Positions 5,268-59,365 of a stretch of 64,000 nucleotides of DNA are shown in pieces. The notes below the pieces were generated by a model that was not told the DNA's origin, made no database searches, and saw only the letters and a list, made by a program, of their open reading frames with translations. How positions within the stretch are numbered: position 1 is the first letter of the stretch; each line of letters opens with the position of its first letter. The stretch is from an uncultured bacterium. GTDB lineage: Bacteria > Patescibacteriota > Minisyncoccia > UBA6257 > 2-01-FULL-56-20. Made by a program: the position numbers and the translations under genes. The DNA is taken from positions 267,719 to 331,718 of the forward strand of contig CAWJQC010000007.1 of NCBI GenBank assembly GCA_963844965.1, read 5' to 3'.

Positions 5268-6845
5268 TCAACGCAGCCCCGCAGACTTTTCGTTCGCGTA
5301 TTTTTCTATGTCGGCCAGAAAAGAACCGCCCTTCTGTTTTTTCTGCCACTGCCGGATAAGAAGATGCCCTCCGTACTTTATGAAATCCCGGAGCCAGGCG
5401 CGCTCAAAGTAGTGCTTCCACCCCTTAAAGAAATAGTGTAGATGGAAAGTTTTGAAGATGAGCTTGAAGAGGCTGAACGAGCTGTAAAACCATTTCATAA
5501 TCTCAATTGGTTTTTCCTGAAATTCCTTGAGCGTCATGTTGTCTGGAATGAAGCAGGGGTAATTCCCGTCGTAGTATCTCCAACGGACGATATTGAGCGG
5601 AAAGATTCTTCCTTCTCTATCAAGCCTCTTCCGAAGGTCTGTCCCCACCAAGGGCACGGGGTGCAGAACCTGAATGCTGTCTATTTTGGCTTCGCGAATG
5701 AACACCTTGAAGCGCCTAACCATTTCTGAAACGCTTATTTCGGATCGCTGTTCGTTTGGATAACCGAAGATAAACATTCCATGCACCCAGAAATACCGGC
5801 GCAGAGTTTTTGTCCACTCCGCCATGTTCTTGGAAAGATAACCCTTGCGCATGGCTTTAAGGTCCTCATCTATCGGTGATTCATAGCCAATGCAGACCAT
5901 ACTCACGCCGGCTTTTTTCATCGTCTCAAGAATCGGGATATTCCTCGCCGTTTCTAACCTTATCTGAACCGAGAAATCTAAGCTGTCTCTATATTTTTCG
6001 TGGATTAGCCTGAAGAATTCAACAACACCTTCAAGGTTTTCTTCCAGGCGGTCGTCCACGATGAAGAATTTTTTTGCGCCGTATTTTTCCACGAGCCATT
6101 TCACCGTATTGAACACGTGCAGGGGGCTCGCCCAGCGCGGCTTGCCTTTCACACTGCAGAATTCGCAGTTCATGGCACAGCCGCGGACGCGGCCGATGGG
6201 ATAGAGCTTGATCTTTTTCACGTGCCGCAGGAGACCGAAATCCGGGTAGGGAAGATCGCTCAAGTCCGGCAATTCAAGCATCTGTGGCGGATTAGTTGTC
6301 TGCTCGTAGTCCAATTCCCGGAACCAGAAGGAAATTCCAGGGATATCAGCAAGATTTCCACAGTTCTTGAGGGTTGTGAGAATCTGCTGAATGGCGATTT
6401 CTCCATCGCCATGGACGACAATGTCGATATTATTTTTCAATGTCTCCTCCGGGCAGTAATGGGCGTGCCAGCCGCCGGCAATGTTTATAGCTCCTTGGTC
6501 GTAGTAAAATTTGGCCAATTCAAAAACGCGATCCATAGTGGAAGAAAGTCCGCAGTAAAAACCGACAACCGAAGCCGGGTCTTCTTTTTGCAGTTTTTCG
6601 TGGTCCGGCAGACCACGTTCGTCACGTGGGCCTTTGTAATTGTTTTCGTCAATGACTTCAACTCTCCATCCCCAAACTTTATTTGCCGCGGTCGCCACGC
6701 TTATGATTCCGAGGGGCGTGGTCTGCTCGGCAATGCGCGAAAAAATGTTCACTTCCGGGAAAGCGGGGGCGATAAAGCGAATCAGGGGCCAGTCATCGCT
6801 CGTTATTAGCGGTTTCACTATTCTGCCTCCGATGAAAGTTCTCAA
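5268..6845 (-). CDS. B12-binding domain radical SAM protein (class B radical SAM)
   Basis: 525 aa. N-terminal B12-binding-like domain, radical SAM motif CAMNCEFCS, then a TIM-barrel rSAM core. Confidence 0.7.
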   Translation of the reverse strand: MRTFIGGRIVKPLITSDDWPLIRFIAPAFPEVNIFSRIAEQTTPLGIISVATAANKVWGWRVEVIDENNYKGPRDERGLPDHEKLQKEDPASVVGFYCGLSSTMDRVFELAKFYYDQGAINIAGGWHAHYCPEETLKNNIDIVVHGDGEIAIQQILTTLKNCGNLADIPGISFWFRELDYEQTTNPPQMLELPDLSDLPYPDFGLLRHVKKIKLYPIGRVRGCAMNCEFCSVKGKPRWASPLHVFNTVKWLVEKYGAKKFFIVDDRLEENLEGVVEFFRLIHEKYRDSLDFSVQIRLETARNIPILETMKKAGVSMVCIGYESPIDEDLKAMRKGYLSKNMAEWTKTLRRYFWVHGMFIFGYPNEQRSEISVSEMVRRFKVFIREAKIDSIQVLHPVPLVGTDLRKRLDREGRIFPLNIVRWRYYDGNYPCFIPDNMTLKEFQEKPIEIMKWFYSSFSLFKLIFKTFHLHYFFKGWKHYFERAWLRDFIKYGGHLLIRQWQKKQKGGSFLADIEKYANEKSAGLR

Positions 6846-8750: not shown

Positions 8751-10773
8751 ATGAAGAATACTTCCTGGACGGTGGGTGTTTTGGTGGTTTGTGTTTCTGT
8801 AAGTTTGCTTGCGGCGTCAAGCGCTTACGCGGCTACGCCGACGCTTTCGCTCGCGGTGACGAGCGGGGATTCTGTGCAGATAAACGTGATCGGCGATTCG
8901 AATTTTCCGGTCGTGTTTTATTACAATGTCGGCAGTTCTTCCGGAACGAACACAACGACGCTCGGTAGTACGAACTCCAGCGGCGTTTTTTCAACAACGA
9001 TAAGCACGGGCGCGTACGCGATAAACTCCAGCTATCCGGTATATGTCGTAGTGGATGGTCAGCAGTCAGCTACACAAACCTGGCCTTACGGCGCCAGTAC
9101 TTCCTCGGGTACAAGCGGTACGCCAGTACTCAGCCAGACAAGCGTTACGGTCGGTATCGGGCAGTCAGTGACCGTGACTTCGCAGGGAGGCAGCGGCATC
9201 TATTTGGTGTCCAATTCCAATTCTTCTGTGGCCGCCGCTTACGTATCTGGGACACAGGTTGTTGTTACCGGAAGCCAGCTGGGTTCAACGACAATGACAA
9301 TCTGTTATGTGGGTACCGCTTCCAATTGCACGAATTTGTATGTGAATGTGCAGAGCGGAACCGTGCAGGCGCTCACGTTCAGCCCGAACAACATTTCCTT
9401 ATCGGTCGGTGGCAGTCAATCTGTGACCATAAGCGGCGGGAGTGGAACGTATAGTTTGTCTTCCAATTCAAACTCCAGCGCCGTTTCCGTGAATTTATCG
9501 GGAAACACGCTTACGGTGACAGCCATCGCGGCCGGGAGCGCCAATATAACGGCATGCGACACGTCGGGAAATTGTAGTGTCTTATATGTGACGGTGGGCG
9601 GAAGCTCAACAAGCGGTTCCTTGTCTTTCAGCCAGACGAATCCGTCTATAGCGGTCGGACAGGTTATAAGCGTGAGTGTTTACGGCGGAAGCGGCTATTA
9701 CGTGTCCGCTAACACGAACTCCGGCATCGCCTCGCAAACGCTGAATGGCAACACACTCTCAATCTCTGGTCTGGCAGCCGGAGCGACGACGATCACCGTA
9801 TGTTCGGCGGTGAACGGCTGCGGCTACCTTTATGTCACCGTCGGTTCGTCATCCGGCACGAGCCAGACAATTACTTTTAGCCAGACGAATCCGTCCATAG
9901 CGGTCGGACAGGTTATAAGCGTGAGTGTTTACGGCGGGAGCGGGTATTACGTAACGGGCAACACGAATTCCAGTGTCGCTTCGCAAGCCCTTAATGGGAG
10001 CATACTTTCCATCTCCGGATTGGCAAGTGGCGCCACGACTATCACGGTATGTTCCGTGGCTAATGGCTGTGGTTCGATTTACGTCACGGTCGGTTCGTCG
10101 TCGGGCTCGAGTATGGCCATCACCTTTGGCACGACCAATCCCACTATTACAACGGGGCAAAGTATGAACATCTCGCTTTCTGGCGGTTCCGGTTATTTCG
10201 TTTCGTCTAATCCAAGTACGAATATTGCGCAGGCAAGCGTTACGGGCAATACGCTTGCGCTCTATGGCGTGGGCGTCGGCTCCGATTCGCTTACGATTTG
10301 CGCGAGTTCCGGCGGCTGCAACACGCTTTACGTCACAGCTGACAAGCGTGACGACCGTTCCGACCACCACGCAGACACAGCAAACAGTTGTTTCGAGCGC
10401 TTGGATAACCGAGATCCAGACAATGCAGACCCAGCTCACAAATATCCTCGCCCAAATCCAAACTTTACAAAGTAACCTTGCAAATCTTCTTACGCAAGTT
10501 ACCGCCGGCGCGCAAAGTCCAAGCGTAAGTGGCACGACGACCGCGCAATCCAGCGGCTATAAATTCTACAGCCCGCTCTCGCTTGGCTCGAGCGGCGCAG
10601 ACGTCACGGCATTGCAGACCCTCTTGGCCGCGAAGGGATATTACACTGGTTCCATAACCGGTTACTACGGTACGGCGACGATGGACGCGGTGATGGAATA
10701 CCAGACGGCTCATGGTATCACGCCGCTCGGCAACGTGGGTCCCGCCACCCGCGCGGCGCTGAACGCGGAATAA
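8751..10773 (+). CDS. cell-surface protein with tandem BIG2-like Ig repeats and a C-terminal peptidoglycan-binding domain (frameshift near 10330)
   Basis: ORF 8751..10475 has a signal peptide, S/T/G-rich sequence and at least 5 tandem ~80-aa repeats (…SQTNPSIAVGQVISVSVYGGSGYY…ATTITVCS..NGCG.LYVTV). Overlapping ORF 10225..10773 in another frame continues the sequence and ends in a PG_binding_1 motif (LSLGSSGADVTALQTLLAAKGYYTGSITGYYGTATMDAVMEYQ). Confidence 0.65.
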
Positions 10774-11974: not shown

Positions 11975-12705
11975 AAAGTTTATATAAAAAAGTGGCATTG
12001 GAATTAGCGGAAAAGGCGGGTAAAACTATGCTTGCTTATTTTACATTGGGGATGAAAAAGAATTGGAAAGAAGACAACACCCCCGTTACCGCAGCCGACA
12101 TTGAAATTAACAAACTCGTTATCAAAACCATCCGCAAGAATTTTCCTGATCACGACGTGCTTGGCGAAGAGTTGAGCGATATGAAAAGAGGAAGCGAGAT
12201 GGTGTGGGTGTGCGATCCGATTGACGGCACAATCCCGTTTTCTCATGGGATTCCAACGAGCACCTTCTCGCTTGCGCTTGTTTGGCGCGGGAAGCCGATT
12301 ATGGGCGTTGTTTATGACCCATTTCTCAAAAGAATGTTTTTTGCAGAGAAAGGCGGAGGCGCATTTCTCTGTAGCAAGAGAATATACGTGAATTCGAAAA
12401 AAGAATTGCGGAGCTCTCTCGTAGGTATGGAGGTATGGAGGGAGGCACAATTCAATTTATCCCCGCTTCAGATAGCCATGAAGAACGAGGGCGCAAAAAT
12501 AATCATTCCTTGCTCGACGGCGTATATGGGAATGCTTGTTGCGTGTGGCGAAGCCTCGGCAAGCATTTTTCCGGGATCTACCGCGCACGATGGCGCCGTG
12601 AAAAGGACCCTTTTCTTTAGACAGTCATTCGACGATTTTTTCGCCGATTTTTTTCACTTTACCACGCCGCTAACTGCTCGGCAAACACGACTGGCGGCAT
12701 CTTGA
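11971..12705 (+). CDS. inositol monophosphatase / FBPase family protein, 3' end interrupted by an IS3-family insertion at ~12605
   Basis: DPIDGT motif, WVCDPIDGTIPFSHGIPTSTFSLAL and the VYDPF region are typical of the IMPase/SuhB family. The ORF runs into IS-derived sequence after ...STAHDGAVK (nt ~12604) and lacks the usual C-terminal ~35 aa. Confidence 0.6.
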   Translation: MKSLYKKVALELAEKAGKTMLAYFTLGMKKNWKEDNTPVTAADIEINKLVIKTIRKNFPDHDVLGEELSDMKRGSEMVWVCDPIDGTIPFSHGIPTSTFSLALVWRGKPIMGVVYDPFLKRMFFAEKGGGAFLCSKRIYVNSKKELRSSLVGMEVWREAQFNLSPLQIAMKNEGAKIIIPCSTAYMGMLVACGEASASIFPGSTAHDGAVKRTLFFRQSFDDFFADFFHFTTPLTARQTRLAAS

Positions 12706-13444
12706 GGGCGGAGTGGATCCGCGTGTGGTTGTACTGCCACAAGGTGCTGTAGATCTCCGCCACGAGCTCGCCGAAGGTCCCGAACCGGTTGGGATCACCG
12801 AGGTCAATCTTGAACTTGTCATAGAACGATTCCTGGTAGCCGTTTTCCCATGGGGCACCGGGCCGCGACCGCGAGATCGTGATGCCACAGTCCCCCAGTG
12901 TATCGGTGAACGCTCGTGCCTTGTACTCGCTGCCGTTGTCCGAATGGAAGATGACCGGATGCGGATGGTGGAAAAGCGCGTTGGCCAGGGTCTGTATCGT
13001 GAGGGGCGATCCTTTCCGCAACGCCACATGGACGCCCATCAATCGTCTCGTGAAAAGATCGAGTATCGTGGACACGTACACTTTCTTGCCGCGATACAGG
13101 AACTCCGTGAAATCGGTTGCCCAGACGTGGTTCGCGTACGAGGGCATGATGGCAAGTAAGAGGTTCGGAAAGGCCCGCGATGCCTTTGATTTCCGGTATT
13201 TCCTGCCTCGCCTCCGGTACGGCCTTATGCCGAAGATTCGCATGACGCGCTGCGCTCGCGGACGGCTCACGCCCAGAGCTTGTCCCAAGCGCCGGGAACC
13301 GTATGCCGGATGGCGCTGCAATTCTTCTTCCATGCGGATCTTGAGCGCCCAATCTTTCTTGTCCTGCCGTGATACGTAGTAGAGCGATGCCCGCGAGACG
13401 CCCATGGCCCGCGCCATGGCGGACTTGTTCCGCTTTTCCGTCAA
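12659..13444 (-). CDS. IS3-family transposase OrfB (DDE integrase catalytic domain)
   Basis: …WATDFTEF…IFHSDNGSEYKA…SRPGAPWENGYQESFYDKFK… is the rve/DDE motif block of IS3 OrfB. Confidence 0.85.
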   Translation of the reverse strand: MTEKRNKSAMARAMGVSRASLYYVSRQDKKDWALKIRMEEELQRHPAYGSRRLGQALGVSRPRAQRVMRIFGIRPYRRRGRKYRKSKASRAFPNLLLAIMPSYANHVWATDFTEFLYRGKKVYVSTILDLFTRRLMGVHVALRKGSPLTIQTLANALFHHPHPVIFHSDNGSEYKARAFTDTLGDCGITISRSRPGAPWENGYQESFYDKFKIDLGDPNRFGTFGELVAEIYSTLWQYNHTRIHSALKMPPVVFAEQLAAW

Positions 13445-13704
13445 TTCTTTTTTTGGGCCTGGGAGAGCTTCACGGTGAGCTCGCCCACCACTTCAAACAG
13501 CTCCCTGTTCTGCTTCTGGAGACGGCTGAACTCGCCCCAGGAAGGGACGCCCGATGCTCCTGCGCCTAGCCAATTGTAGATGGTGGACTCGTGCAAACCG
13601 TGGTCCTTCGCAGCCTGCGCTACGGGGACTCCTTCTTCCTTCACCCGGCGGAGGATGTCCGCCTTCACTTCCTTCGCAATCCGATGCCCTTTTTTGTTGC
13701 TCAT
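13441..13704 (-). CDS. IS3-family transposase OrfA (HTH DNA-binding)
   Basis: 87 aa, HTH (VAQAAKDHGLHESTIYNWL) plus leucine-zipper-like C-terminus. It ends QKKN* within the A AAA AAG slippery site. Confidence 0.8.
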   Translation of the reverse strand: MSNKKGHRIAKEVKADILRRVKEEGVPVAQAAKDHGLHESTIYNWLGAGASGVPSWGEFSRLQKQNRELFEVVGELTVKLSQAQKKN

Positions 13705-13718
13705 GACACAATGGTAGT

Positions 13719-14051
13719 TTGTTTCGACCTTTGTGTCTAAATTACGGGGTCCGGGTCAAAACAAAAGAGGTCGTCAGAGTCCTCTCGAAGGCCGGCTTCA
13801 CGCAACAGGAGATACTTGATGCCATCTGGAACGCCGACTTTGTAAAAGATGAGAACGGCGGAGCCGTCGTGAACGCCATGTACGAAGCAAAGATTCCGGT
13901 CGCCGATATCGTCGGAGTGCTTATGAGGGAAAAGATCGATCCCGACGACCTCGACGGCGAAATGGGCGGAGAAGAAGTTGACACGCGCACCCGCGTTGAG
14001 ATTCTCCATTCGCTCTTTGAGGCGATTGACGGCGAGAAAGAGACAGCTTAA
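13719..14051 (+). CDS. hypothetical protein (start overlaps IS end; true start uncertain)
   Basis: 110 aa acidic ORF with a TTG start inside the IS terminal repeat. It does not resemble the missing IMPase C-terminus. Confidence 0.25.
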   Translation: MFRPLCLNYGVRVKTKEVVRVLSKAGFTQQEILDAIWNADFVKDENGGAVVNAMYEAKIPVADIVGVLMREKIDPDDLDGEMGGEEVDTRTRVEILHSLFEAIDGEKETA

Positions 14052-14140
14052 TTTTTCCACGATTACCACCAGGCCGCATATTCATATCTGCGGCCATTTT
14101 CTTTTGGTTTGAATCAGAAGTCGCTTCTCTTTCTTTATTC

Positions 14141-14220
14141 TCCGCGGAGCCATTTTTCATTTTCCGCCCGCACTGCCTACCTTCTCTAATTTTTGCCAAA
14201 GGCGGACAAGCCTGCCTGCC
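14141..14220. repeat. ~80-bp intergenic repeat, copy A (upstream of the metallopeptidase gene)
   Basis: tccgcggagccatttttcattttccgcccgcactgcctaccttctctaatttttgccaaaggcggacaagcctgcctgcc is ~88% identical to copy B at 14757..14836. It is followed by TAGAAT 8 nt before the ATG. Confidence 0.6.
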
Positions 14221-14246
14221 TCCGGCGGGAATGGTAGAATAAGCTT

Positions 14247-14651
14247 ATGCTGAAATTGGGGCGGGATGAATTTGAGAAAATCGTAGAGGAAGGAATACAT
14301 GCGGTTCCGGAAAAGTTTTTACAGAAGTTGGATAACGTGGCGATCGTGATCGACGAGGAACCGACGCCGGCCCAGAAAAAGAAGCTGAATATCCATCCAA
14401 ACTGGACACTCTTCGGCTTATACGAAGGCGTGCCGCAGGTATCGCGAGGGGCGAACTATACCGCTGTGCTTCCCGATAAAATAACTATTTTCCAAAAGCC
14501 GATCGAAGACGAGGCCGTGGATAAGGAAGACATTAAAAAGATGGTGAGGGATACGGTTTGGCATGAAATTGCCCACCATTTTGGCATGGACGAATCCCGC
14601 GTGCGTGAAGCCGAAGCCAGAAGGCGAAAGCTCCGCGGCAGCGCGAAATAG
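14247..14651 (+). CDS. zincin-like metallopeptidase family protein (DUF1025-type, HExxH)
   Basis: 134 aa. HEIAHHFG motif and the N-terminal LGRDEFEKIVEEGIHAVPEKF…NVAIVIDE pattern match the small Zn-metallopeptidase (Zincin_1/DUF1025) family. Confidence 0.55.
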   Translation: MLKLGRDEFEKIVEEGIHAVPEKFLQKLDNVAIVIDEEPTPAQKKKLNIHPNWTLFGLYEGVPQVSRGANYTAVLPDKITIFQKPIEDEAVDKEDIKKMVRDTVWHEIAHHFGMDESRVREAEARRRKLRGSAK

Positions 14652-14756
14652 GCGAATGGAGGAAACCGGTCAACCCCGAACAACCCCGCCAAATAAACCA
14701 TTCCAACATTCTGCAGAATGTTGGAATGATGTTTTTCAGCCCCGCCCTCCTGCCCC

Positions 14757-14836
14757 TCCGCGGAGCCGTTTTCATTTTCCGCTCATGCCGTTTACCTTCT
14801 CTAATTTCCGTCAAAGGCGGACAAGTCTGCCTGCCC
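14757..14836. repeat. ~80-bp intergenic repeat, copy B (upstream of the small membrane ORF/cyclophilin)
   Basis: See copy A. Followed ~70 nt later by TAAAAT immediately before the ATG at 14914. Confidence 0.6.
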
Positions 14837-14913
14837 TTGGCATGGCCTCTGGAGGGAGCCACATCGTCTTGGCTTGTCTTTTTTCCCCGCGACGAGAGTG
14901 GTAAAATAGTTCT

Positions 14914-15111
14914 ATGAAAAAATCATCACTTATAGCGGTGGTCGCGGTTGCCGTCGTTGCCGTCATCTCCGCCGTTCTCATGTTCAGGAACGCGCCGGCT
15001 CCGCCGGAGACCTCGCCGGTCGCGCCACAGAATCTTCAGCCCGCAACCGCGCCATCCGCGCCTTCGTCGAGCGCGGATCGCAAACCCAAACGCAAAACAT
15101 GGAACATTTAA
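14914..15111 (+). CDS. small membrane-anchored Pro/Ala-rich protein (possibly the N-terminal anchor of the downstream cyclophilin if an indel is present)
   Basis: 65 aa: TM helix (LIAVVAVAVVAVISAVLMF) then a PAPPETSPVAPQNLQP linker. Ends 12 nt into the cyclophilin ORF in another frame, next to a short A-run. Confidence 0.3.
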   Translation: MKKSSLIAVVAVAVVAVISAVLMFRNAPAPPETSPVAPQNLQPATAPSAPSSSADRKPKRKTWNI

Positions 15112-15578
15112 TTACGCTCAGAACCACCATGGGCGATATCCAATTCGGGACCTACGACTCGGACGCTCCGAATACGGTGAACAACTTCATCACGCTCGCG
15201 CAAAAAGGATTTTATAACAACGTCATTTTTCACCGCGTCATCAAGGGATTTATGATACAAGGCGGCGACCCTACGGGAACCGGCACGGGAGGTCCGGGGT
15301 ACTCCTTTGCGGACGAACTCAATCCCGCGACGCCTTCTTACCAGGCGGGATACAAGAAGGGCGTGGTCGCGATGGCGAACGCCGGACCGAACACGAACGG
15401 CAGCCAATTTTTCATCATGCTTGCCGATTATCCGCTGGACCATAACTATACGATCTTCGGCAAGGTGGTGGCCGGACAGGGCGTCGTGGACGCGATCGGC
15501 GATCTTCCGACCGACGCGAACGACAGGCCTCTGCAACCGCCGGCGATAAAGAGCGTTGTCGTGGAAGTTGCGAAGTAG
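15099..15578 (+). CDS. ppiB: peptidyl-prolyl cis-trans isomerase, cyclophilin type
   Basis: 159 aa with FHRVIKGFMIQGGDPTGTGTGGPGYSF, MANAGPNTNGSQFFI and the rest of the cyclophilin signature. Confidence 0.85.
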   Translation: MEHLITLRTTMGDIQFGTYDSDAPNTVNNFITLAQKGFYNNVIFHRVIKGFMIQGGDPTGTGTGGPGYSFADELNPATPSYQAGYKKGVVAMANAGPNTNGSQFFIMLADYPLDHNYTIFGKVVAGQGVVDAIGDLPTDANDRPLQPPAIKSVVVEVAK

Positions 15579-15745
15579 GGGACATCCTCTTTTCGTTTTG
15601 AGTCGGTCGTAAGCAATCAGAAATTCAAAACTATCTCTCTACCCCTCGTGCCGGCCAGGTCTGCCTGTCGGTAGGCGGGCACAGAATTGAGGTTGTTATA
15701 CTCGTATGGTATGTTTAATTCATATAAATTAAACCCCATACATAC

Positions 15746-16147
15746 ATGCTTAAAGAGTTCAAACAGTTTTTGCTTCGGGGAAATGTCGTTGATCTGGCGG
15801 TCGGAGTCGTCGTCGGCGCGGCTTTTGGCACGGTCGTTACCGCTCTTGTTTCGGACCTCCTAACCCCGTTCATCGCGGCCATCATCAAGGTACCGGATTT
15901 TAGCGGCCTTGCGTTTACGATCAACGGCAGTAAGTTCATGTACGGCCATCTTATAAACGCCGTCATCTCGTTCATGCTTGTCGCGGCCGCCATTTTTTTC
16001 TTCGTGGTCAAACCGATAAATGTGCTCATCGCCCGATCCCGCAAAGAGCCTCCGGCGGATCCCACCACGAAAAAATGCAAAGAATGTCTGAGTGAGATCC
16101 CTATTGAAGCCAAACGCTGTTCGCACTGCGCGCAGTTGGTTGTCTAA
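15746..16147 (+). CDS. mscL: large-conductance mechanosensitive channel MscL with C-terminal CxxC...CxxC zinc-ribbon tail
   Basis: N-terminal FKQFLLRGNVVDLAVGVVVGAAFGTVVTALVSDLLTPFI is the MscL signature. The C-terminus is KKCKECLSEIPIEAKRCSHCAQLVV. Confidence 0.85.
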   Translation: MLKEFKQFLLRGNVVDLAVGVVVGAAFGTVVTALVSDLLTPFIAAIIKVPDFSGLAFTINGSKFMYGHLINAVISFMLVAAAIFFFVVKPINVLIARSRKEPPADPTTKKCKECLSEIPIEAKRCSHCAQLVV

Positions 16148-16253
16148 ATAAGAACCTGAAATTTTTTCTCCGCCCTTCGCGCCGAAACAAGCGGCGCTCG
16201 CGCTGGGAAGGGAACTTGAACTTCTGAATCCAGCGTAGCGCGATAGGCTCATA

Positions 16254-17490: not shown

Positions 17491-17949
17491 ATGCGTAAAT
17501 TTTATTGGAGCGAGGAATACGCCGTTGGTATCAGGATATTGGACGAACAACACAGACGCTTTTTTGAGATTGCGGACAAAATTATAGATCTAGAGTCAAA
17601 ACAGAATACTACCATGGACGAATTGCTCGCCGTCGCCGAACAGAATGCTACCAGGAACAAATTGCTCGCCGCTGCCAAGGAGCTTGAAGCGCATGCCGCG
17701 GGTCACCTGAAAACCGAGGAGGATTATTTTGACTCCCTTAATTATCCGAGCGCCCAACTTCACGTTGAGGCCCATAATTTGTTCCGGAAGAGAGTTGATA
17801 ATTTTCTCGCGATGATAGCGGACGAGAATATCCATGGCGAAGATATCGCCGAAGAAATGGCTTCCTACTGCATTTTCTGGCTATCCGACCACATCTTGCT
17901 CATGGATAAAAAGTACACCGTGTTTTTCAGGGAACACGGCCTTAAATGA
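17491..17949 (+). CDS. hemerythrin-like metal-binding protein (bacteriohemerythrin)
   Basis: W..EYAVGIRILDEQHRRFF…H...EEDYF…HVEAHNLF…H (H/E/D ligand pattern of the hemerythrin HHE domain). Internal duplication ELLAVAEQNATRNKLLAAAKEL. Confidence 0.65.
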   Translation: MRKFYWSEEYAVGIRILDEQHRRFFEIADKIIDLESKQNTTMDELLAVAEQNATRNKLLAAAKELEAHAAGHLKTEEDYFDSLNYPSAQLHVEAHNLFRKRVDNFLAMIADENIHGEDIAEEMASYCIFWLSDHILLMDKKYTVFFREHGLK

Positions 17950-20273: not shown

Positions 20274-20810
20274 TTGGTTAGGATTTTAGTTGTCATGCAG
20301 ATGGTCGGATTTTTCCTCATATATTTAGTAGGTGCGGTTATCCTTTACCTGCTTCTTCGGCCGGTGACTCGCGGCGCGCCGTATTTTACGACGAAGCCGG
20401 GGAGCGTGGACGCCATACTGCGCCTCGCTCACGCGGGACCGCACAATAAGGTCGCCGATCTCGGTTCCGGCGACGGGCGCATATTGATCGCCTTTGCGGA
20501 GCGGGGAGTTGAGTCGCACGGTTTTGAGATCAACCCGCTTCTCGTTTGGCTCTCGCGCCGCAGGATAAGCAGAGCCGGTCTCGCGGGGAAAGCCTTCGTC
20601 CACTGGGAAAGTTTTTGGAAAGCGGATTTAAGCGGGTTTGACATTGTCGTCGTTTACGGCATCACGCATATCATGAAAAAACTGGAGGAAAAATTAGAGA
20701 AGGAACTCAAGCCGGGCGCAGAAAGTAATTTCCAACATTTACCGATTCCCCGGGTTGAGGTGCGTTGCGGAAGAGGGAAGGGTGTATTTATATCAGAAAT
20801 AGCCGGCTAC
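20274..20810 (+). CDS. class I SAM-dependent methyltransferase with N-terminal TM helix (frameshift near 20720; true C-terminus ...VYLYQK in another frame)
   Basis: VADLGSGDGRILIAFAERGVESHGFEINP (motif I), DIVVVYG. After ~20720 the alternative frame gives …RFPGLRCVAEEGRVYLYQK*, the expected family C-terminus. Confidence 0.55.
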
Positions 20811-20844: not shown

Positions 20845-21888
20845 ATGAAGCACCTCATTTCGCTTAAAGAGCAGTCGCGCGAGGATATTCTTCAGATTTT
20901 GGAACTGGCGCGGAAGCTCAAGGAAAAGCGCGCGAAAGGCGAACTTACCGAATATCTCAAGGACAAGACGCTCATAATGCTTTTCCAAAAGACGTCCACG
21001 CGGACGAGGCTTTCGTTCGAGGCGGCGATGACGGAACTCGGCGGGCATGCCATATTTCTGGACGCGCGGACTTCCCAGCTTGGCCTTGCCGACTTCGGCG
21101 ACGAAATTCGCGCCATCATGCGTTTCGGGCAGGTTCTCATGTTCCGCGCGCTCAAAGTCGCGGACGTGCTCACAGCCGCTTCATTCAATCAGATTCCGGT
21201 GATTGACGCCTGCAGCGAAAAATATCATCCGGCACAATCGCTCGGCGATATGCTAACGATGATTGAACACAGCTCCCCGCGTCATCCTGAGCGCAGCGAA
21301 GGATCTCCATGCTCCCCAGCGGAATTTGCCGAGGGATTAAAAAATATCAAAAAAGTCGTCTGGCTCGGAATTGAAAATAATGTTTCAAATACCCTGAAGC
21401 TTGTTTGCGTGAAGCTTGGCGTCAGGTTTGTGATCGCCGCGCCGGAAGTGGACGCGGCGAGCGTTGATGAGGAGTTGAACAGAATGGCCGAGGCCACCGG
21501 ACTTATTTCACGGACGCTGAATCTGAAAGAAGCTCTCGCCGGAGCGGATTATGTTCACACCGATACCTGGCTCAACATGGAGTTTTTCGACACGACGGTG
21601 TCGACCCTGAGCGAAGTCGAACGGGTTCATGGAAGCCGCGTGAAGCCGCAATTCGCGGAAGAATTGGAACGCAGGAAGAAAATTTTCATGCCTTACCAGC
21701 TGAATGCCAAGCTGATTGATACCTATGCCCCGAAGGCGAAGATAATGCATTGTCTTCCCGCGCACGTCGGCTATGAAATTTCCCGCGATGCCATTGACCA
21801 CAAGAATTCCGTTATTTTTGACCAAGCCGAGAACCGCCTGCACATCCAAAAAGCCGTAATTATGTGGCTCTTGGGGAAGGGGACATAG
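20845..21888 (+). CDS. argF: ornithine carbamoyltransferase with an in-frame ~20-aa repeat-element-derived insertion
   Basis: STRTRLSFE carbamoyl-phosphate motif, HCLPAHVG, and a C-terminus similar to OTCases. Insertion SSPRHPERSEGSPCSPAEFAEG is encoded by the palindromic repeat unit at 21281-21307. Confidence 0.8.
   Translation: MKHLISLKEQSREDILQILELARKLKEKRAKGELTEYLKDKTLIMLFQKTSTRTRLSFEAAMTELGGHAIFLDARTSQLGLADFGDEIRAIMRFGQVLMFRALKVADVLTAASFNQIPVIDACSEKYHPAQSLGDMLTMIEHSSPRHPERSEGSPCSPAEFAEGLKNIKKVVWLGIENNVSNTLKLVCVKLGVRFVIAAPEVDAASVDEELNRMAEATGLISRTLNLKEALAGADYVHTDTWLNMEFFDTTVSTLSEVERVHGSRVKPQFAEELERRKKIFMPYQLNAKLIDTYAPKAKIMHCLPAHVGYEISRDAIDHKNSVIFDQAENRLHIQKAVIMWLLGKGT
21281..21307. repeat. 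palindromic repeat unit GTCATCCTGAGCGCAGCGAAGGATCTC (single arm, in-frame inside argF)
   Basis: Near-identical to both arms of the inverted pair at 59294..59365. It encodes ...RHPERSEGS... in the argF frame. Confidence 0.6.
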
Positions 21889-22015
21889 TTTGCTATTTTG
21901 TCTGAAAAATAGGCCCTGACTCAAAGTCGAGGTTTTTATTTGTTGTCGGCGGGACATTTTGGATTTTTCCAGTAGTAAATGCTAAACTAAATCTACAACT
22001 TAATATGCCTAAACC

Positions 22016-22129
22016 GCCGAAATTTCGGTAACATGGCGTAAAAATCCCATCCCTGATACTAAGCTCCTCGCTTAGCTACTCAGGGATGGGTCGCGTCTCG
22101 AAAGAGGCGTGGGTAACCGAAAGGTTGCC
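22016..22129 (+). promoter_or_regulatory. highly structured palindromic leader upstream of the MTase-nuclease gene (nested perfect hairpins, GNRA-type loops, repeated CCCATCCCTG motif)
   Basis: ccgaaatttcgg; cccatccctga[tactaagctcctcgcttagcta]tcagggatggg (11-bp perfect stem with inner stem); gcgtctcgaaagaggcg; ggtaaccgaaaggttgcc. CCCATCCCTG recurs at 22176, 4 nt before the ATG. Confidence 0.35.
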
Positions 22130-23787: not shown

Positions 23788-23889
23788 GCGGTACTTGACA
23801 CCGTTATCCACTCGTATATACTTAAACTATTCCAAAGACCGCAGGGCATCCGCCGATGAGGCGGCATAGGACCCGCGATAGGAATCGTT

Positions 23890-23971
23890 GGAGTAATCGC
23901 TAATAATGCGAATATCGGCAAATAATGCAAATAAAATTCGCATTATTTGAAAAAGATTAGCATTATTCGCG
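23890..23971. repeat. ~85-bp repeat family copy 1 (arrays of GCGAATAATGC-like sub-repeats in direct and inverted orientation), within the rplJ leader
   Basis: ~85% identical to 28967..29048. Internal inverted repeats aataaaattcgcattatt / attagcattattcgcg. Confidence 0.6.
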
Positions 23972-24018
23972 GACACTCCTCGATGGCGGCCTTTGGAGAA
24001 AAGGTCGTTTTTTATTCC

Positions 24019-28064: not shown

Positions 28065-28973
28065 ATGCACCACCATCCGGTTCTTTTAAAAGAAATCATA
28101 AAATTTTTAGATCCGAAACCCGGCGAATTCATTGTTGACGGCACGGTTGACGGAGGAGGACACGGCGCCGAAATTTTTGAAAAGATTTTACCGAATGGAA
28201 GACTTTTGGGCGTAGACCTGGATGCCGATCTCCTGGAAAAAGCTTCGCGGGCAGTTTCCGCGAAAGTCAAAAGCCGGAAATCAAATATCAACAGCAATTT
28301 GATTTTGGTTCGGGGCAACTACGCCGACCTACCGGATATTTTGGAAGAAAAAAAGTTGCCGAAGGCCGACGGTTTGCTTCTGGATCTGGGATTTTCCTCC
28401 GAACAATTGGAGAACGCCGAAAAAAGGGGATTCAGCTTTGAAAAAAATGAGCCGCTTTTGATGACCTACAGCGCCGGGCGGAAGCCCGTCAAAGAAATTC
28501 TCACGGAACTTGACGCCAAGGAGCTTGCGAAAATCATCTTTGAACTGAGCGGTGAGAAGTTCGCGATGCGGATAGCGCGGGCGATAAAAGAACGGGGGCG
28601 GACGAGAGCAGTAGAGACAAGCGGTGAGCTCGCGGAAGCGGTCCGGGGCGCGGTGCCCAAAAATTATGAGCGCGGCCGCATTGATCCCGCGACGAGAACT
28701 TTTCAGGCGCTGCGGATTTACGCGAACGACGAACTAGGGAATCTTAAAAAAGTTTTGGACAGATTGGGAGAAATTCTGGAACCGGGCGGGAGAGTGGTGA
28801 TTATAAGTTTCCATTCGCTTGAGGATCGAATAGTGAAGGATAATTTTCGGAAGCTGGAGGAATCCGGAGAACTCCGGATTTTGACGAAGAAGCCGGTTCG
28901 CCCCGCGGAAGAGGAAATTTTGAAAAATCCGCGCAGCCGCTCAGCTAAACTGCGCGCCGCTATCATGGAGTAA
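28065..28973 (+). CDS. rsmH: 16S rRNA (cytosine1402-N4)-methyltransferase RsmH (MraW)
   Basis: HHPVLLKEII…DGTVDGGGHG…DLGFSSEQL…SFHSLEDRIVK, the conserved MraW motifs. It sits in the dcw cluster. Confidence 0.9.
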   Translation: MHHHPVLLKEIIKFLDPKPGEFIVDGTVDGGGHGAEIFEKILPNGRLLGVDLDADLLEKASRAVSAKVKSRKSNINSNLILVRGNYADLPDILEEKKLPKADGLLLDLGFSSEQLENAEKRGFSFEKNEPLLMTYSAGRKPVKEILTELDAKELAKIIFELSGEKFAMRIARAIKERGRTRAVETSGELAEAVRGAVPKNYERGRIDPATRTFQALRIYANDELGNLKKVLDRLGEILEPGGRVVIISFHSLEDRIVKDNFRKLEESGELRILTKKPVRPAEEEILKNPRSRSAKLRAAIME

Positions 28974-29048
28974 TCGCGAATAACGCGAATGATAGCAAAT
29001 AACGCGAATAAAATTCGCATTATTCAATAAAAATTAGCATTATTCGCG
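28967..29048. repeat. ~85-bp repeat family copy 2 (GCGAATAATGC sub-repeat array), rsmH-ftsL intergenic
   Basis: See copy 1 at 23890..23971. It begins at the rsmH stop codon. Confidence 0.6.
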
Positions 29049-29057
29049 AATACTCTA

Positions 29058-34789: not shown

Positions 34790-36239
34790 ATCAATATATT
34801 TATTGCCGTCGCTGTATCATGGTGAAAGCCCCGCTGCTGCGACCGATATATCGACGATGCAGAGCTCCAAGGATATGTCGCACGCACTCTGAAACTCGTT
34901 GGATGTCTTTAGCGCAAACTCCTATTGATAGCATCATACAAAAACTTGCCGGATTATCCGTTCCGAAGCTAGTGAACTTTTATTCGGCCTTCAAGCTTAT
35001 GACCTTATCTCTCACCACAAACTTGCTCTTGATGAGCGAGAGTAATTCTCGTTTCTCGGTGGGATTACCGTCATTTAGTACATATGCTGCGTATCATCTC
35101 GCGTCGAATTCGGCATCATCCTGCTTTATCGCTCTCACACCTAGGAATGATTTCTGGAATTTGGCGACGCGTTTTGTTTCCTCGATAAAACGCTGTTTGA
35201 TATCGGACTCGTTAATATCCAATTTGCCAATTAATCGATAAGCTGTTTAGTGAGCTCATCTTCGCGCATATATTTGTTCTAACAGAACGTATCTCGCGAC
35301 CGACAGCAACCGTAGTAGACGTACTTGGTCGTCGTACCGTCTTTAAGCTTCTTGAATTTCTCCTGTGCGCTAATGGTCGACCCGCAGAGGCCGCAGGTGA
35401 ATAGTTTCGTAAAGGCGAATTCCTTGACCTCAGCATTTCTGAAAAGACTATCTTGCTTTAGTTGTTCCTGGGTTGCTTCGAATATTTCTCTTGTGATGAG
35501 TGCCTGATGTTTCCCGGTGTACCAGTTACCGCTCCCTACGGGGTATTCGAATACACCGTAATAAAAGGTGTTTTGGAGCAGCCGATAAAGATTGCCCAGT
35601 GCCAGATGTTTGTTGCCTGAATTTGTTCGGAAATTAACTTCAAATTTGAGCCAATGAAATAGCTTCCTGCCGCTCCAGCCATTGGCCACCTTCTCAAACA
35701 TCTGTTTAACGACCGGGGCGCGTGCGGGGTCGATTATGACGCTACCTTTACGATCGACACGTTTCTCGGTCAGATATCCAGTAGGAGCCTGCGCGGGCCA
35801 CAGCCCCATTTCGCAGCGCATCCGCAGTCCTCGCTTCACGTTTACACTCTTATTGTCGTTTTCAAGCTTCGCCTGAGAGCATAGGATCATTAGCAAGAAC
35901 TTTTCGTTCGGTGAGTTGGCAAATCTTTGTCCGTAAGTTCGGATCTCATGAGTAACTTCTGATCCATGAGATCCACGAGGATCTGAGGTCGCCCGCGTTC
36001 CTACTTAACCGATCCGGTGCCCATGTGAGAATTCCTGTATATCGGCCGCTTCTAATATCCTTCAAAATTTCCAGAAACACCGACCGCTCGCCTGAGCTTT
36101 TTGCCGAGTGGGATTCCCGCCGGATGTCGACAATTTCCAATGCTTCGCGTTCGGCGATAAGAAGCATCTCCTTAATTTGCGAATCAATGGAGAGAATCTG
36201 TTTTTCTTCCGACTCAGTGCTCTTTCTCGCATAAAGCAC
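34790..36239 (-). pseudogene. decayed large serine recombinase (homolog of the intact copy at 45417..47345)
   Basis: ORF 35946..36239 is the resolvase catalytic N-terminus (MLYARKSTESEEKQILSIDSQ…ILTWAPDRLSRNAGDL). ORF 35279..35896 is the middle (…MILCSQAKLENDNKSVNVKRGLR…KYVYYGC). The C-terminus is recognisable only in shifted frames at 34790-35278. It is divergent from the intact copy and out of frame. Confidence 0.6.
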
Positions 36240-44081: not shown

Positions 44082-44377
44082 AGTTAGTTCTTCATTTCTA
44101 TCACGTTGAGCAGCTTTTCGCAAAAGATGAAGGGACGTCAGGAACCCTCAAAAAATATTGTCAAACTGGCTCCAAACGTGATACCTTTTAGGTAATTGAA
44201 TATCAGATAGATCGCCTAAACCACGCATTTTGCATGGCATGGCATTACGCAGAATCTCCCTTCCAGATACCAAACGCCACGTTTGGCGACTTCTGGAAGG
44301 GAGTCACTCCGAAAGGGGTGGGGCCGCAAGGCCCAAGCCAGCGTGGCGTTTTGTGTTCTCTATTTTAAAACAAACCC

Positions 44378-59293: not shown

Positions 59294-59365
59294 GTCATGC
59301 TGAGCGGAGCGAAGCATCTCATAGCCGCACATAACATGGAGATCCTTCGCAAAGCTCAGGATGAC
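59294..59365. repeat. inverted pair of the GTCATCCTGAGCG.AGCGAAG.ATCTC repeat unit (two arms separated by 18 bp), murB-hpf intergenic
   Basis: gtcatgctgagcggagcgaagcatctc …18 nt… gagatccttcgcaaagctcaggatgac. Both arms match the single unit inside argF at 21281-21307. Confidence 0.6.

What the first reader, a model, noticed from the sequence alone, without database searches (positions are those of the whole stretch)
14141..15745. 80-bp repeat placed upstream of two different genes, plus a shared CTGCCTG…GGCGGG…-10 motif also found before mscL
Copies at 14141-14220 and 14757-14836 (~88% identity) each sit immediately upstream of a plus-strand gene (the DUF1025 metallopeptidase, and the small membrane protein with cyclophilin). 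Each is followed by an extended -10-like hexamer (TAGAAT / TAAAAT) just before the ATG, implying leaderless or short-leader transcripts. A related core (caggtctgcctgtcggtaggcgggcaca … TATACT-ATG) precedes mscL. This looks like a shared promoter or operator module co-regulating envelope and stress-related genes.
Basis: seen in the sequence. Interest (0 to 1): 0.5.

Follow-up and report, generated by a model that had tools for sequence, protein, structure and literature searches.

The report
Dispersed palindromic repeat carrying a promoter box
The two repeats are real, but they are diverged copies of a small palindromic repeat scattered through several CPR (Patescibacteria) genomes, once even inside a gene, and one arm happens to look like a promoter box; they are not a dedicated switch co-regulating stress genes.

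Summary
The repeat is confirmed: A at 14141-14227 and B at 14757-14844, same strand, about 88% identical, nhmmer E about 1e-27. Both -10 boxes lie 6 nt before an ATG. The claimed third copy before mscL is not supported: it is only a gapped 13-nt match, and its TATACT lies 43 nt from the true mscL start.

The conserved core is a 60-64 nt nested palindrome: TTCTCTAATT arm, hairpin, GCGCGC centre, hairpin, GGAATGGTAGAATA arm. Copies 83-95% identical to A occur in unrelated contexts in other Patescibacteria:
- a Jorgensenbacteria contig;
- an intergenic copy next to an ArsR-like gene;
- an in-frame copy inside an intact mnmA gene.

Short forms with the same arms lie downstream of genes and in another mnmA. 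Five of seven Zincin loci (window included) lack the long element upstream. Its distance to the start codon varies (6, 52 and about 55 nt).

The TAGAAT of copy A is the element's right arm and is probably the Zincin promoter. B has lost that arm. Compared with a close relative, A and B are duplicates of an mscL-Zincin intergenic region, and their left end falls at a rearrangement breakpoint.

Best reading: a Correia/RPE-like palindromic repeat family, not yet described for CPR as far as I could find. Mobility is inferred, not shown. Interest is moderate to low.

The parts
14072..14105 (+). Terminator-like hairpin (GGCCGCA...TGCGGCC) plus T run after the upstream ORF. It places copy A in a true inter-operon gap.
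   Evidence: Read directly from the sequence.
14141..14181 (+). 5' extension of copy A (CTCCGCGGAGCC-ATTTTTCATTTTCCGC...), shared with B and with the L012 mscL-Zincin intergenic region but not with copies in other genomes.
   Evidence: Three-way alignment. The 'ab' model hits L012 438-520 at E = 6e-14. blastn shows the L012 breakpoint at window 14149.
14182..14241 (+). Copy A palindromic core: left arm TTCTCTAATT (14182-14191), hairpin 1 TTTGCC-AAA-GGCGGA (14192-14206), centre (14207-14214), hairpin 2 CCTGCC-TCC-GGCGGG (14215-14229), right arm AATGGTAGAATA (14230-14241).
   Evidence: 93% identical to L001, 92% to L012, 83% to L004. The core nhmmer model scores E = 4e-22 on the forward strand and 5e-4 on its own reverse strand.
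14232..14240 (+). Extended -10 TGGTAGAAT, which is the right arm of the palindrome, 6 nt before the Zincin ATG (14247). Inferred promoter of a leaderless transcript.
   Evidence: The identical box sits at the same element position in L001 and L012.
14247..14651 (+). Zincin_1 (DUF1025) metallopeptidase gene, flanked by copies A and B.
   Evidence: Pfam PF06262, E = 2.6e-28.
14699..14728 (.). Perfect 13-15 bp palindrome (CATTCCAACATTCTG/CAGAATGTTGGAATG) plus T run, downstream of Zincin. It looks like a terminator and may be the positional counterpart of the short-form element found after Zincin in L012 and L021 (shared CCATTC...GAAT flanks and the same 20-nt interior length).
   Evidence: (terminator scan, both strands), compared. 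The homology is suggestive only.
14757..14796 (+). 5' extension of copy B.
14797..14858 (+). Copy B core: left arm, hairpin 1 (TCCGTC-AAA-GGCGGA) and centre are intact. There is an 8-nt insertion (TTGGCATG), hairpin 2 is partly kept (GCCTCTGGAGGGA) and the right arm is missing.
   Evidence: Alignments. 94% identical to L012 over the aligned part.
14856..14885 (+). Terminator-like hairpin plus T run inside the segment that separates the B core from the downstream promoter.
14899..14907 (+). Extended -10 TGGTAAAAT, 6 nt before the ATG at 14914. It is homologous to the Zincin promoter of relatives (L012 TTGGTAAAATCAATTT, L017 TTGGTAAAATAGTTCG, L021 GCGGTAAAATCAATTT).
14914..15578 (+). Small membrane ORF (14914-15111) overlapping the cyclophilin PPIase gene (15099-15578), downstream of B.
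15661..15679 (+). CTGCCTG-TCGGTA-GGCGGG upstream of mscL: a short GC-rich hairpin, not a demonstrable copy of the element.
16148..16180 (+). The 3' flank of mscL, homologous to the start of the L012 mscL-Zincin intergenic region. In L012 it runs directly into the sequence homologous to window 14149 onward, so this is a rearrangement breakpoint.
   Evidence: blastn: L012 1-435 matches window 15748-16180, and L012 438-978 matches window 14149-14650. Alignment.

Best explanation
The conserved heart of the repeat is a 60-64 nt nested palindrome:
- arm TTCTCTAATT;
- hairpin TCCGCC-AAA-GGCGGA;
- centre GCGCGC;
- hairpin CCCGCC-TCT-GGCGGG;
- arm GGAATGGTAGAATA.

It belongs to a family of small interspersed palindromic repeats in Patescibacteria (the Parcubacteria/Paceibacteria part of the CPR). 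Long forms carry two inner hairpins. Short forms share the same arms but have a minimal centre or one hairpin.

The family is scattered across unrelated contexts in several genomes: upstream of genes, downstream of genes, and in frame inside mnmA. In this it behaves like MITE, REP, Correia or RPE-type repeats (inferred).

The right arm is a perfect extended -10 (TGGTAGAAT) facing outward. A copy that lands, or is trimmed, just upstream of an ATG can therefore drive a leaderless transcript. This is inferred for copy A and the Zincin gene.

In this window the two copies are not independent insertions of the 64-nt unit. They are duplicates of a longer piece, roughly 90-170 nt, of an ancestral mscL-Zincin intergenic region that contained the element.
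- A has lost the spacer between the element's -10 and the gene's own similar -10. The result is a single hybrid box 6 nt from the ATG.
- B keeps the full layout but has a broken right arm and an inserted terminator-like hairpin. The membrane-ORF/cyclophilin operon is transcribed from the separate TGGTAAAAT box.

Shown: the sequence family, its palindromic anatomy, its scattered and polymorphic distribution, the in-ORF copy and the breakpoint. Inferred: promoter activity, mobility and the order of rearrangement events.
For: 1. Family and anatomy.
- Public-collection pattern scans, a peptide search and look-ups of Zincin/MnmA homologue contigs recovered further copies: L001-L003 (Candidatus Jorgensenbacteria), L004, L005 and L012/L013.
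- Core identity between genomes is 83-95%; L001 against L012 is 61/64.
- blastn finds no other nucleotide similarity between L001 or L004 and the window.
- The core model matches the reverse strand of each copy: E = 3e-9 for L001, 7e-8 for L004, 1e-7 for L005, 1e-6 for L012 and 5e-4 for A.
- The DNA fold z-score is about -3 for L001 and L004.
- One compensated change keeps hairpin 2 paired: CCCGCC/GGCGGG in L001 becomes CCTGCC/GGCAGG in L012.

2. Copy inside a gene.
- In L004 the element lies in an intact 403-aa mnmA ORF.
- It forms an 18-aa insertion relative to E. coli MnmA (PDB 2DER).
- It is absent from 19 of the 21 closest homologues, which are 57-79% identical.
- The homologue L007 carries the short form TTCTCTAATT-CGCGC-GAATAAGAGAATA at the same site, a clean 36-nt difference.

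3. Short forms elsewhere.
- L021 has TTCTTTAATTCGCGCGAATAGAAGAATAG 5 nt after the Zincin stop codon. It is 27/30 identical to the L007 mnmA short form.
- L012 has TTCTCTAATT-CCTGCCCGTCCCTGACGG-GAATAAACGAATAG at that same site.

4. Presence or absence at matching loci. The long element lies upstream of Zincin only in the window and in L012/L013. It is absent in L009, L010/L011, L017/L018, L019/L020 and L021.

5. Promoter arm.
- TGGTAGAAT sits at the same element position in A, L001 and L012.
- A -10 box 6-7 nt before the start codon recurs at other genes in the window.

6. Duplication and rearrangement.
- The three-way alignment of A, B and L012 shows homology well beyond the palindrome.
- In L012 the sequences matching window 15748-16180 (mscL plus flank) and window 14149-14650 (A plus Zincin) are adjacent.
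- L012 comes from a close relative: mscL is 94% and DUF2914 70% identical at the protein level.
Against: - Copy number is unknown and appears low. Only two adjacent copies lie in 64 kb. Exact-pattern scans of 185,579 species genomes and 241 million metagenome records returned only 1 and 3 loci.
- No target-site duplication could be defined. The mnmA loop cannot be aligned at the DNA level in 'empty' homologues.
- No cognate transposase was identified. The adjacent IS3-like element has unrelated terminal repeats.
- All recovered copies are co-oriented with their flanking genes. A freely transposing element need not behave that way.
- High nucleotide conservation between genomes could instead reflect a conserved protein-binding site.
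- Promoter activity is predicted from sequence only.
Confidence: 0.58

Rival explanations
1. Operator or promoter module. The two 6-3-6 palindromes (TCCGCC-AAA-GGCGGA and CCYGCC-TCN-GGCGGG) would be binding sites for a dimeric transcription factor that co-regulates the Zincin and cyclophilin operons, and possibly mscL.
For: - The half-site spacing of 9 bp centre to centre suits an HTH dimer.
- In A, hairpin 2 lies between about -32 and -18 relative to the inferred TSS, a classical operator position.
- One compensated change preserves the dyad.
- Nucleotide conservation across genomes is high.
- The gapped CTGCCTG...GGCGGG motif recurs before mscL.
Against: - The same element lies in frame in mnmA.
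- Its position relative to the -10 box and the ATG varies.
- It is absent from five of seven Zincin loci, window included.
- No regulator gene is consistently nearby.
- The dyads are degraded in A and B.
- The mscL site is at background level in full alignment.
Confidence: 0.12
2. Recombination site marking a movable gene cassette. The palindromes would be break-and-join points, and the direct repeats A and B flanking Zincin would be the footprint of a 'promoter-Zincin-short palindrome' unit inserted by recombination at a pre-existing copy.
For: - Zincin has different neighbours in all seven genomes compared, although the protein is 82-90% identical to the window copy.
- A and B are direct repeats bracketing exactly this one gene.
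- The left end of the repeat coincides with the rearrangement breakpoint relative to L012.
- A short palindrome lies 5 nt after the Zincin stop codon in L012 and L021, reminiscent of an ORF-attC layout.
Against: - No integrase or recombinase lies next to the locus. The serine recombinase-like genes are more than 20 kb away.
- No attC-type RYYYAAC/GTTRRRY core sites are visible.
- Ordinary homologous recombination or a tandem duplication followed by deletion explains the same pattern.
- CPR genomes may simply be poorly syntenic.
Confidence: 0.15
3. Structured RNA: a small RNA, a 5' UTR element or a transcript-stabilising hairpin encoded on the + strand.
For: - All variation in hairpin 1 is C to T on the left half, giving G-U pairs on the + strand only.
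- The short forms and the 14699-14728 palindrome lie at the 3' ends of genes, where hairpins stabilise or terminate transcripts.
Against: - No Rfam family matches at E up to 10 in the window region or up to 1 in four other loci.
- The RNAalifold covariation term is +0.67, meaning no covariation support.
- RNA fold z-scores for A and B are only -1.8 and -1.3.
- In A the element lies upstream of the only plausible -10 box, so it would not be part of the Zincin transcript.
Confidence: 0.08

Closest known systems
Correia repeat-enclosed elements (CREE) of Neisseria
   Same: Both are small non-coding palindromic repeats with inverted terminal arms whose ends can create outward-facing sigma-70-type promoters for adjacent genes. 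Both are found mostly upstream of genes, occasionally within them, and vary between strains (PMC2649163; PMC10969869).
   Different: - There is no sequence similarity.
- This element is shorter: 60-64 nt, against about 100-200 nt.
- No TA target duplication or IHF site could be shown.
- Copy number appears low.
- The interior is a pair of GC-rich hairpins that differs between copies at the same site.
Rickettsia palindromic elements (RPE)
   Same: Palindromic repeats that can sit in frame inside intact protein-coding genes in small, reduced genomes (PMC10969869). Here the mnmA genes of L004 (long form) and L007 (short form) carry them in a surface-loop position.
   Different: - RPEs are about 100-150 bp and are inserted into ORFs at high frequency.
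- Here only one host gene is seen, and most copies are intergenic.
- The sequence and the lineage are unrelated.
REP/BIME/REPIN elements (with RAYT transposases)
   Same: Both use short GC-rich imperfect palindromes arranged as an inverted doublet that folds into one long hairpin, usually in extragenic positions at gene ends.
   Different: - No RAYT or IS200-like gene was identified.
- No GTAG-type conserved head is present.
- The hundreds of copies typical of REPINs are not seen.
- An intragenic copy exists.
Ordinary duplicated promoter region
   Same: In the window, the duplicated unit extends beyond the palindrome and includes a promoter homologous to the Zincin promoter of relatives.
   Different: The palindromic core recurs at 83-95% identity in genomes and contexts that share nothing else with this locus. 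A local duplication cannot explain that.

Membership tests
MITE (miniature inverted-repeat transposable element) | Terminal inverted repeats | tested here: met
   The arms TTCTCTAATTTCCGCC and GGCGGGAATGGTAGAA are imperfect inverted repeats. The core model hits the reverse strand of each copy at E = 3e-9 to 5e-4.
MITE (miniature inverted-repeat transposable element) | Target-site duplication flanking each copy | tested here: inconclusive
   The flanks of A, B, L001, L004, L005 and L012 show no common direct repeat. The empty-site comparison in mnmA fails because the loop cannot be aligned.
MITE (miniature inverted-repeat transposable element) | Several dispersed copies within one genome | tested here: inconclusive
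   Only two adjacent copies lie in the 64-kb window. L012 carries one long and one short form within 600 nt.
MITE (miniature inverted-repeat transposable element) | Parent insertion sequence with the same terminal repeats | tested here: not met
   The only IS in the window (IS3-like, 12605-13752) has the terminal repeats TGTCTAAA...GGGTCC, which are unrelated to the element arms. Other genomes were not surveyed.
MITE (miniature inverted-repeat transposable element) | Presence or absence differs at matching loci of relatives | tested here: met
   The long element lies upstream of Zincin in the window and L012/L013 only, and is absent in L009, L010, L017, L019 and L021. It is present in L004 mnmA and absent from 19 of 21 close homologues.
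Correia (CREE) | Promoter elements in the terminal repeat that read outward | tested here: inconclusive
   The right arm is TGGTAGAAT, a consensus extended -10, in A, L001 and L012. No transcription data are available.
Correia (CREE) | Sequence homology to the Neisseria consensus, TA duplication and IHF site | not tested
   No Correia consensus was compared. The element differs in length and lineage and no TA duplication is seen, so I do not claim membership.
Rickettsia palindromic elements | In-frame insertion in intact ORFs | tested here: met
   The L004 mnmA ORF stays open through the element and aligns with E. coli MnmA on both sides. L007 carries the short form in frame. This shows resemblance in behaviour, not family membership.
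REP/REPIN | Associated RAYT (IS200-like Y1 transposase) and high extragenic copy number | not tested
   ORFs across the window were not systematically screened for PF01797. Copy number could not be measured.
   The element's -10 arm ends 6 nt before the ATG in A and 52 nt before it in L012. The arm is destroyed in B, and the L004 copy lies inside an ORF. The element is absent from five of seven Zincin loci, window included.
Any Rfam RNA family | Covariance-model match | tested here: not met
   Nothing at the repeats at gathering score or at E up to 10 in the window, and nothing at E up to 1 in L004, L005, L012 or L021.
Integron attC site | R''/R' core sites (RYYYAAC...GTTRRRY) and a nearby integron integrase | tested here: not met
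   No such core sites are seen in the long or short forms. No tyrosine recombinase was found among the genes screened by Pfam between 10.8 and 21.9 kb.

The most novel reading that the evidence does not exclude
The nested palindromes could be a CPR-specific class of self-propagating or recombinogenic DNA hairpins. On this reading, constant arms (TTCTCTAATT / GAAT..GAATA) mark a site whose interior grows and shrinks symmetrically: a CGCGCG centre, then one hairpin, then two. Both long and short forms are seen at each of two matching sites (the mnmA loop and the Zincin 3' end). Such hairpins would serve as junctions for shuffling single genes such as Zincin between genomic contexts, and would at the same time deliver a ready-made leaderless promoter.
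Probability: 0.15. Interest if true: 0.65.

Novelty: new member of a known kind. Interest (0 to 1): 0.33.

Why it matters
Small interspersed palindromic repeats are well studied in Neisseria, Rickettsia, enterobacteria and pseudomonads. I found no paper describing them in the ultra-small CPR/Patescibacteria genomes, which are usually regarded as streamlined.

If confirmed, the family would provide three things:
- a portable extended -10 promoter suited to leaderless genes;
- an example of tolerated in-frame insertion into an essential tRNA-modification enzyme;
- a marker of gene-order rearrangement between close relatives.

For this window the practical consequence is modest. The repeats should be annotated as repeat elements, not as a regulon signature.

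Tried and rejected
- **Third copy before mscL.** Rejected as a family member.
- **15-nt exact match to the left arm at 20689-20703(-).** It lies inside a methyltransferase ORF and encodes EKLEKE. The same AAATTAGAGAAG string occurs at the end of rpsM in L014 (KLEK). I treat both as coding-sequence coincidence.
- **Weak nhmmer hit at 5282-5375.** It lies inside a 525-aa ORF and shows no resemblance.
- **Peptide search with the element translated in the mnmA frame.** A tandem 54-aa profile returned one protein, P0001, which led to L005.
- **Viral-contig scan.** One hit (L006) matched only the 21-nt hairpin, probably by chance.
- **BLAST against phage and plasmid collections.** Only chance-level partial matches.
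- **Rfam searches.** Nothing.
- **Coding potential.** A and B differ by 1-nt and 4-nt indels, so no ORF is conserved across both. A minus-strand ATG reading changes frame between the copies (inspection).
- **Link to the neighbouring IS3-like element.** Its terminal repeats are unrelated.
- **Target-site duplication from mnmA 'empty sites'.** The loop cannot be aligned.
- **Self-versus-reverse-complement identity with a free-end-gap aligner.** The random baseline was 77%, so the measure was discarded.
- **Source contig.** The exact Zincin protein (P0122, contig of 331,718 nt) is in the protein collection, but its contig could not be fetched.
Full report
**1. The observation**

The window holds two direct copies of an 87-88 nt sequence, A (14141-14227) and B (14757-14844).
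- The repeat finder reports 84% identity over 67 ungapped nt.
- A gapped alignment gives 73 identities in 83 aligned columns, or 88%.
- A profile built from the two copies scores each at E about 1e-27. The next best hit in the window (E = 0.018) is the reverse strand of A itself.

- an ORF of unknown function (13719-14051);
- a terminator-like hairpin (14072-14095 plus a T run);
- copy A;
- a Zincin_1/DUF1025 gene (14247-14651);
- a perfect palindrome with a T run (14699-14728);
- copy B;
- a 65-aa membrane ORF (14914-15111) overlapping a cyclophilin gene (15099-15578);
- mscL (15746-16147);
- a convergent DUF2914 gene.

TGG-TAGAAT and TGG-TAAAAT each end 6 nt before an ATG.

**2. The mscL 'core' does not hold up**

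- The string is there, and the gapped 13-mer CTGCCTG-N(2-8)-GGCGGG occurs twice against none in shuffles. That pattern was derived from these very sites.
- The repeat profile gives E = 64.
- Local alignment of four element copies to this region ranks 57th to about 3000th among about 6400 background windows.
- The TATACT is 43 nt from the true mscL start. The Pfam MscL model aligns from residue 1 of the ORF starting at 15746, and the ATG next to TATACT is out of frame.

**3. What the repeat is made of**

An exact-pattern scan of species-representative genomes found one locus, L001 from a Candidatus Jorgensenbacteria MAG. A metagenome scan found L002 and L003 (the same sequence) and L004. A peptide search led to L005. 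Contigs carrying Zincin homologues gave L012/L013.

All share only the 3' 60-64 nt of the window repeat:

TTCTCTAATT - TCCGCC AAA GGCGGA - CAA GCGCGC CTG - CCCGCC TCT GGCGGG - AATGGTAGAATA

This is a nested palindrome centred on GCGCGC.
- The core profile matches the reverse strand of each copy: E = 3e-9 (L001), 7e-8 (L004), 1e-7 (L005), 1e-6 (L012) and 5e-4 (A).
- Folded as single-stranded DNA, L001 and L004 reach z about -3. A and B reach only -0.7 and -0.4, so the window copies are degraded.
The reverse complement of the left arm reads TAGAGAA.
- Core identities are 93% (A-L001), 92% (A-L012), 95% (L001-L012) and 84% (A-B).
- L001 and L004 share no other nucleotide similarity with the window.

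**4. Where copies lie**

*Inside a gene.* In L004 the element is in frame inside an intact 403-aa mnmA gene.
- It forms an 18-residue insertion relative to E. coli MnmA.
- It is missing from 19 of the 21 closest homologues.
- The homologue in L007 has, at the same place, a short form with the same arms and a minimal centre (TTCTCTAATT-CGCGC-GAATAAGAGAATA). The difference is a clean 36 nt.

*Downstream of genes.*
- A nearly identical short form (27/30) lies 5 nt after the Zincin stop codon in L021.
- At that same site L012 has an intermediate form with one hairpin, between the convergent Zincin and DUF2914 genes.

*Intergenic.* L005 carries a copy between co-directional genes, before an ArsR-like gene.

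*Absent from most matching loci.* Five of seven Zincin loci, window included (82-90% aa identity to the window gene), have no long element upstream.

It is met in related genomes, not within this window.

**5. Promoter aspect**

- The right arm TGGTAGAAT is a consensus extended -10. It sits at the same element position in A, L001 and L012.
- In the window a TAnAAT box 6-7 nt before a start codon at the head of an open frame recurs at several other genes (20832, 36422, 51635-, 54696). Leaderless initiation looks like a general habit of this organism.
- The spacing from element to gene is not constant. The arm's -10 ends 6 nt before the ATG in A and 52 nt before it in L012, which has a second TGGTAAAAT box next to the ATG. 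In B the arm is gone, and a TGGTAAAAT box lies about 55 nt downstream of the core.
- That TGGTAAAAT box is homologous to the Zincin promoter of L012, L017 and L021.
- The simplest reading for A is a deletion between two similar boxes (GAATGGTAGAAT and GAATTGGTAAAAT) that left one hybrid box at the ATG.

**6. How the window copies arose**

- A, B and the L012 copy share a further 40 nt or more on the 5' side. B and L012 also share the downstream promoter.
- L012 comes from a close relative: mscL is 94% and DUF2914 70% identical at the protein level.
- In L012 the gene order is mscL, element, Zincin, short form, DUF2914(-). The sequence matching window 15748-16180 abuts the sequence matching window 14149-14650.
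- The left edge of the window repeat therefore coincides with a rearrangement breakpoint. The 3' flank of mscL in the window still keeps the first 33 nt or so of the old intergenic region.
- A and B are thus duplicates of an intergenic segment that contained the palindrome. They arose when the Zincin gene changed place, and are not two fresh insertions of the 64-nt unit.
- Zincin has different neighbours in every genome examined.

**7. Alternatives**

- *Operator model.* The dyads have sensible geometry and one compensated change. The intragenic copy, the variable spacing, the patchy distribution and the decay of the dyads in A and B argue against it.
- *RNA model.* There is no Rfam match and no covariation. 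In A the element lies upstream of the only plausible -10 box.
- *Recombination-site or cassette model.* It fits the direct repeats bracketing a gene that moves around, and the breakpoint. There is no recombinase or attC-like core to support it.

**8. Comparison with known systems**

- The behaviour resembles Correia elements, whose inverted-repeat ends create promoters (PMC2649163; PMC10969869), and Rickettsia palindromic elements, which sit in frame in genes (PMC10969869).
- The doublet-hairpin layout recalls REPINs.
- I do not claim membership in any of these. No target duplication, transposase or high copy number could be shown, and there is no sequence relationship.
- Full-text searches for such repeats in CPR/Patescibacteria found nothing relevant.

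**9. Verdict**

The repeat is real and non-random. The 'co-regulation module' reading is largely wrong, although the promoter box in A is probably functional. The finding is a modestly interesting new family of palindromic repeats in CPR bacteria. The window copies are decayed by-products of a local rearrangement.

Noticed in passing
window 22006-22129 and 44213-44334 (+): Two LOOT RNA (RF03000) matches above the gathering score (84 and 58 bits).
   Followed up: no
window 12605-13752 (-): IS3-family insertion sequence: orfA 13441-13704, rve-domain orfB 12659-13444, terminal repeats GGACCCTTTTCTTTAGACA / TGTCTAAATTACGGGGTCC. It abuts the 3' end of the inositol-monophosphatase ORF and overlaps the mechanically called start of ORF 13719-14051.
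   Followed up: partly
window 35675-36047 and 45711-46085: Inverted pair of paralogous segments, about 77% identical, whose translation includes a DRLSRN motif (serine recombinase-like by my reading; not run through Pfam). They bracket about 10 kb, which may be an integrated or invertible element.
   Followed up: no
window 23889-23978 and 28966-29055: 90-nt direct repeat (84% identical) built from AT-rich GCGAATAAT/GCATTATT sub-repeats, 5 kb apart.
   Followed up: no
window 21281-21311 and 59335-59365; L017 1421-1700: Inverted 31-nt pair GTCATCCTGAGCGCAGCGAAGGATC (90%). The same motif type (GGGATCCTTCGC...GCTCAGGAC) is repeated several times downstream of Zincin in L017. It looks like a second palindromic repeat family in these genomes.
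   Followed up: no
L004 1620-1650 (mnmA 3' end); protein P0004: A second in-frame palindromic insert, 'PAEASAKAG' (CCCGCCGAAGCCTCGGCGAAGGCGGG), near the C-terminus of MnmA. It is present only in two of the 22 aligned sequences (L004's own MnmA, P0002, and P0004).
   Followed up: partly
window 9625-10122: Tandem duplication of a 249-nt unit, 79% identical.
   Followed up: no
window 17600-17676: 38-nt tandem repeat (84%) inside the hemerythrin-domain ORF 17491-17949.
   Followed up: no
window 15704-15741: Strong AT-rich hairpin (GTATGG...TTTAATTCATATAAATTAAA...CCATAC) in the mscL leader. The fold z-score for 15640-15745 is -2.8. It could be a 5' UTR structure.
   Followed up: no
L019 10421-10500 and 11001-15583: In one relative the Zincin gene lies next to what looks like a minus-strand tRNA gene (by eye, not scanned with ARAGORN) followed by relaxase and TraG/VirD4-like genes, apparently an integrated conjugative element.
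   Followed up: no
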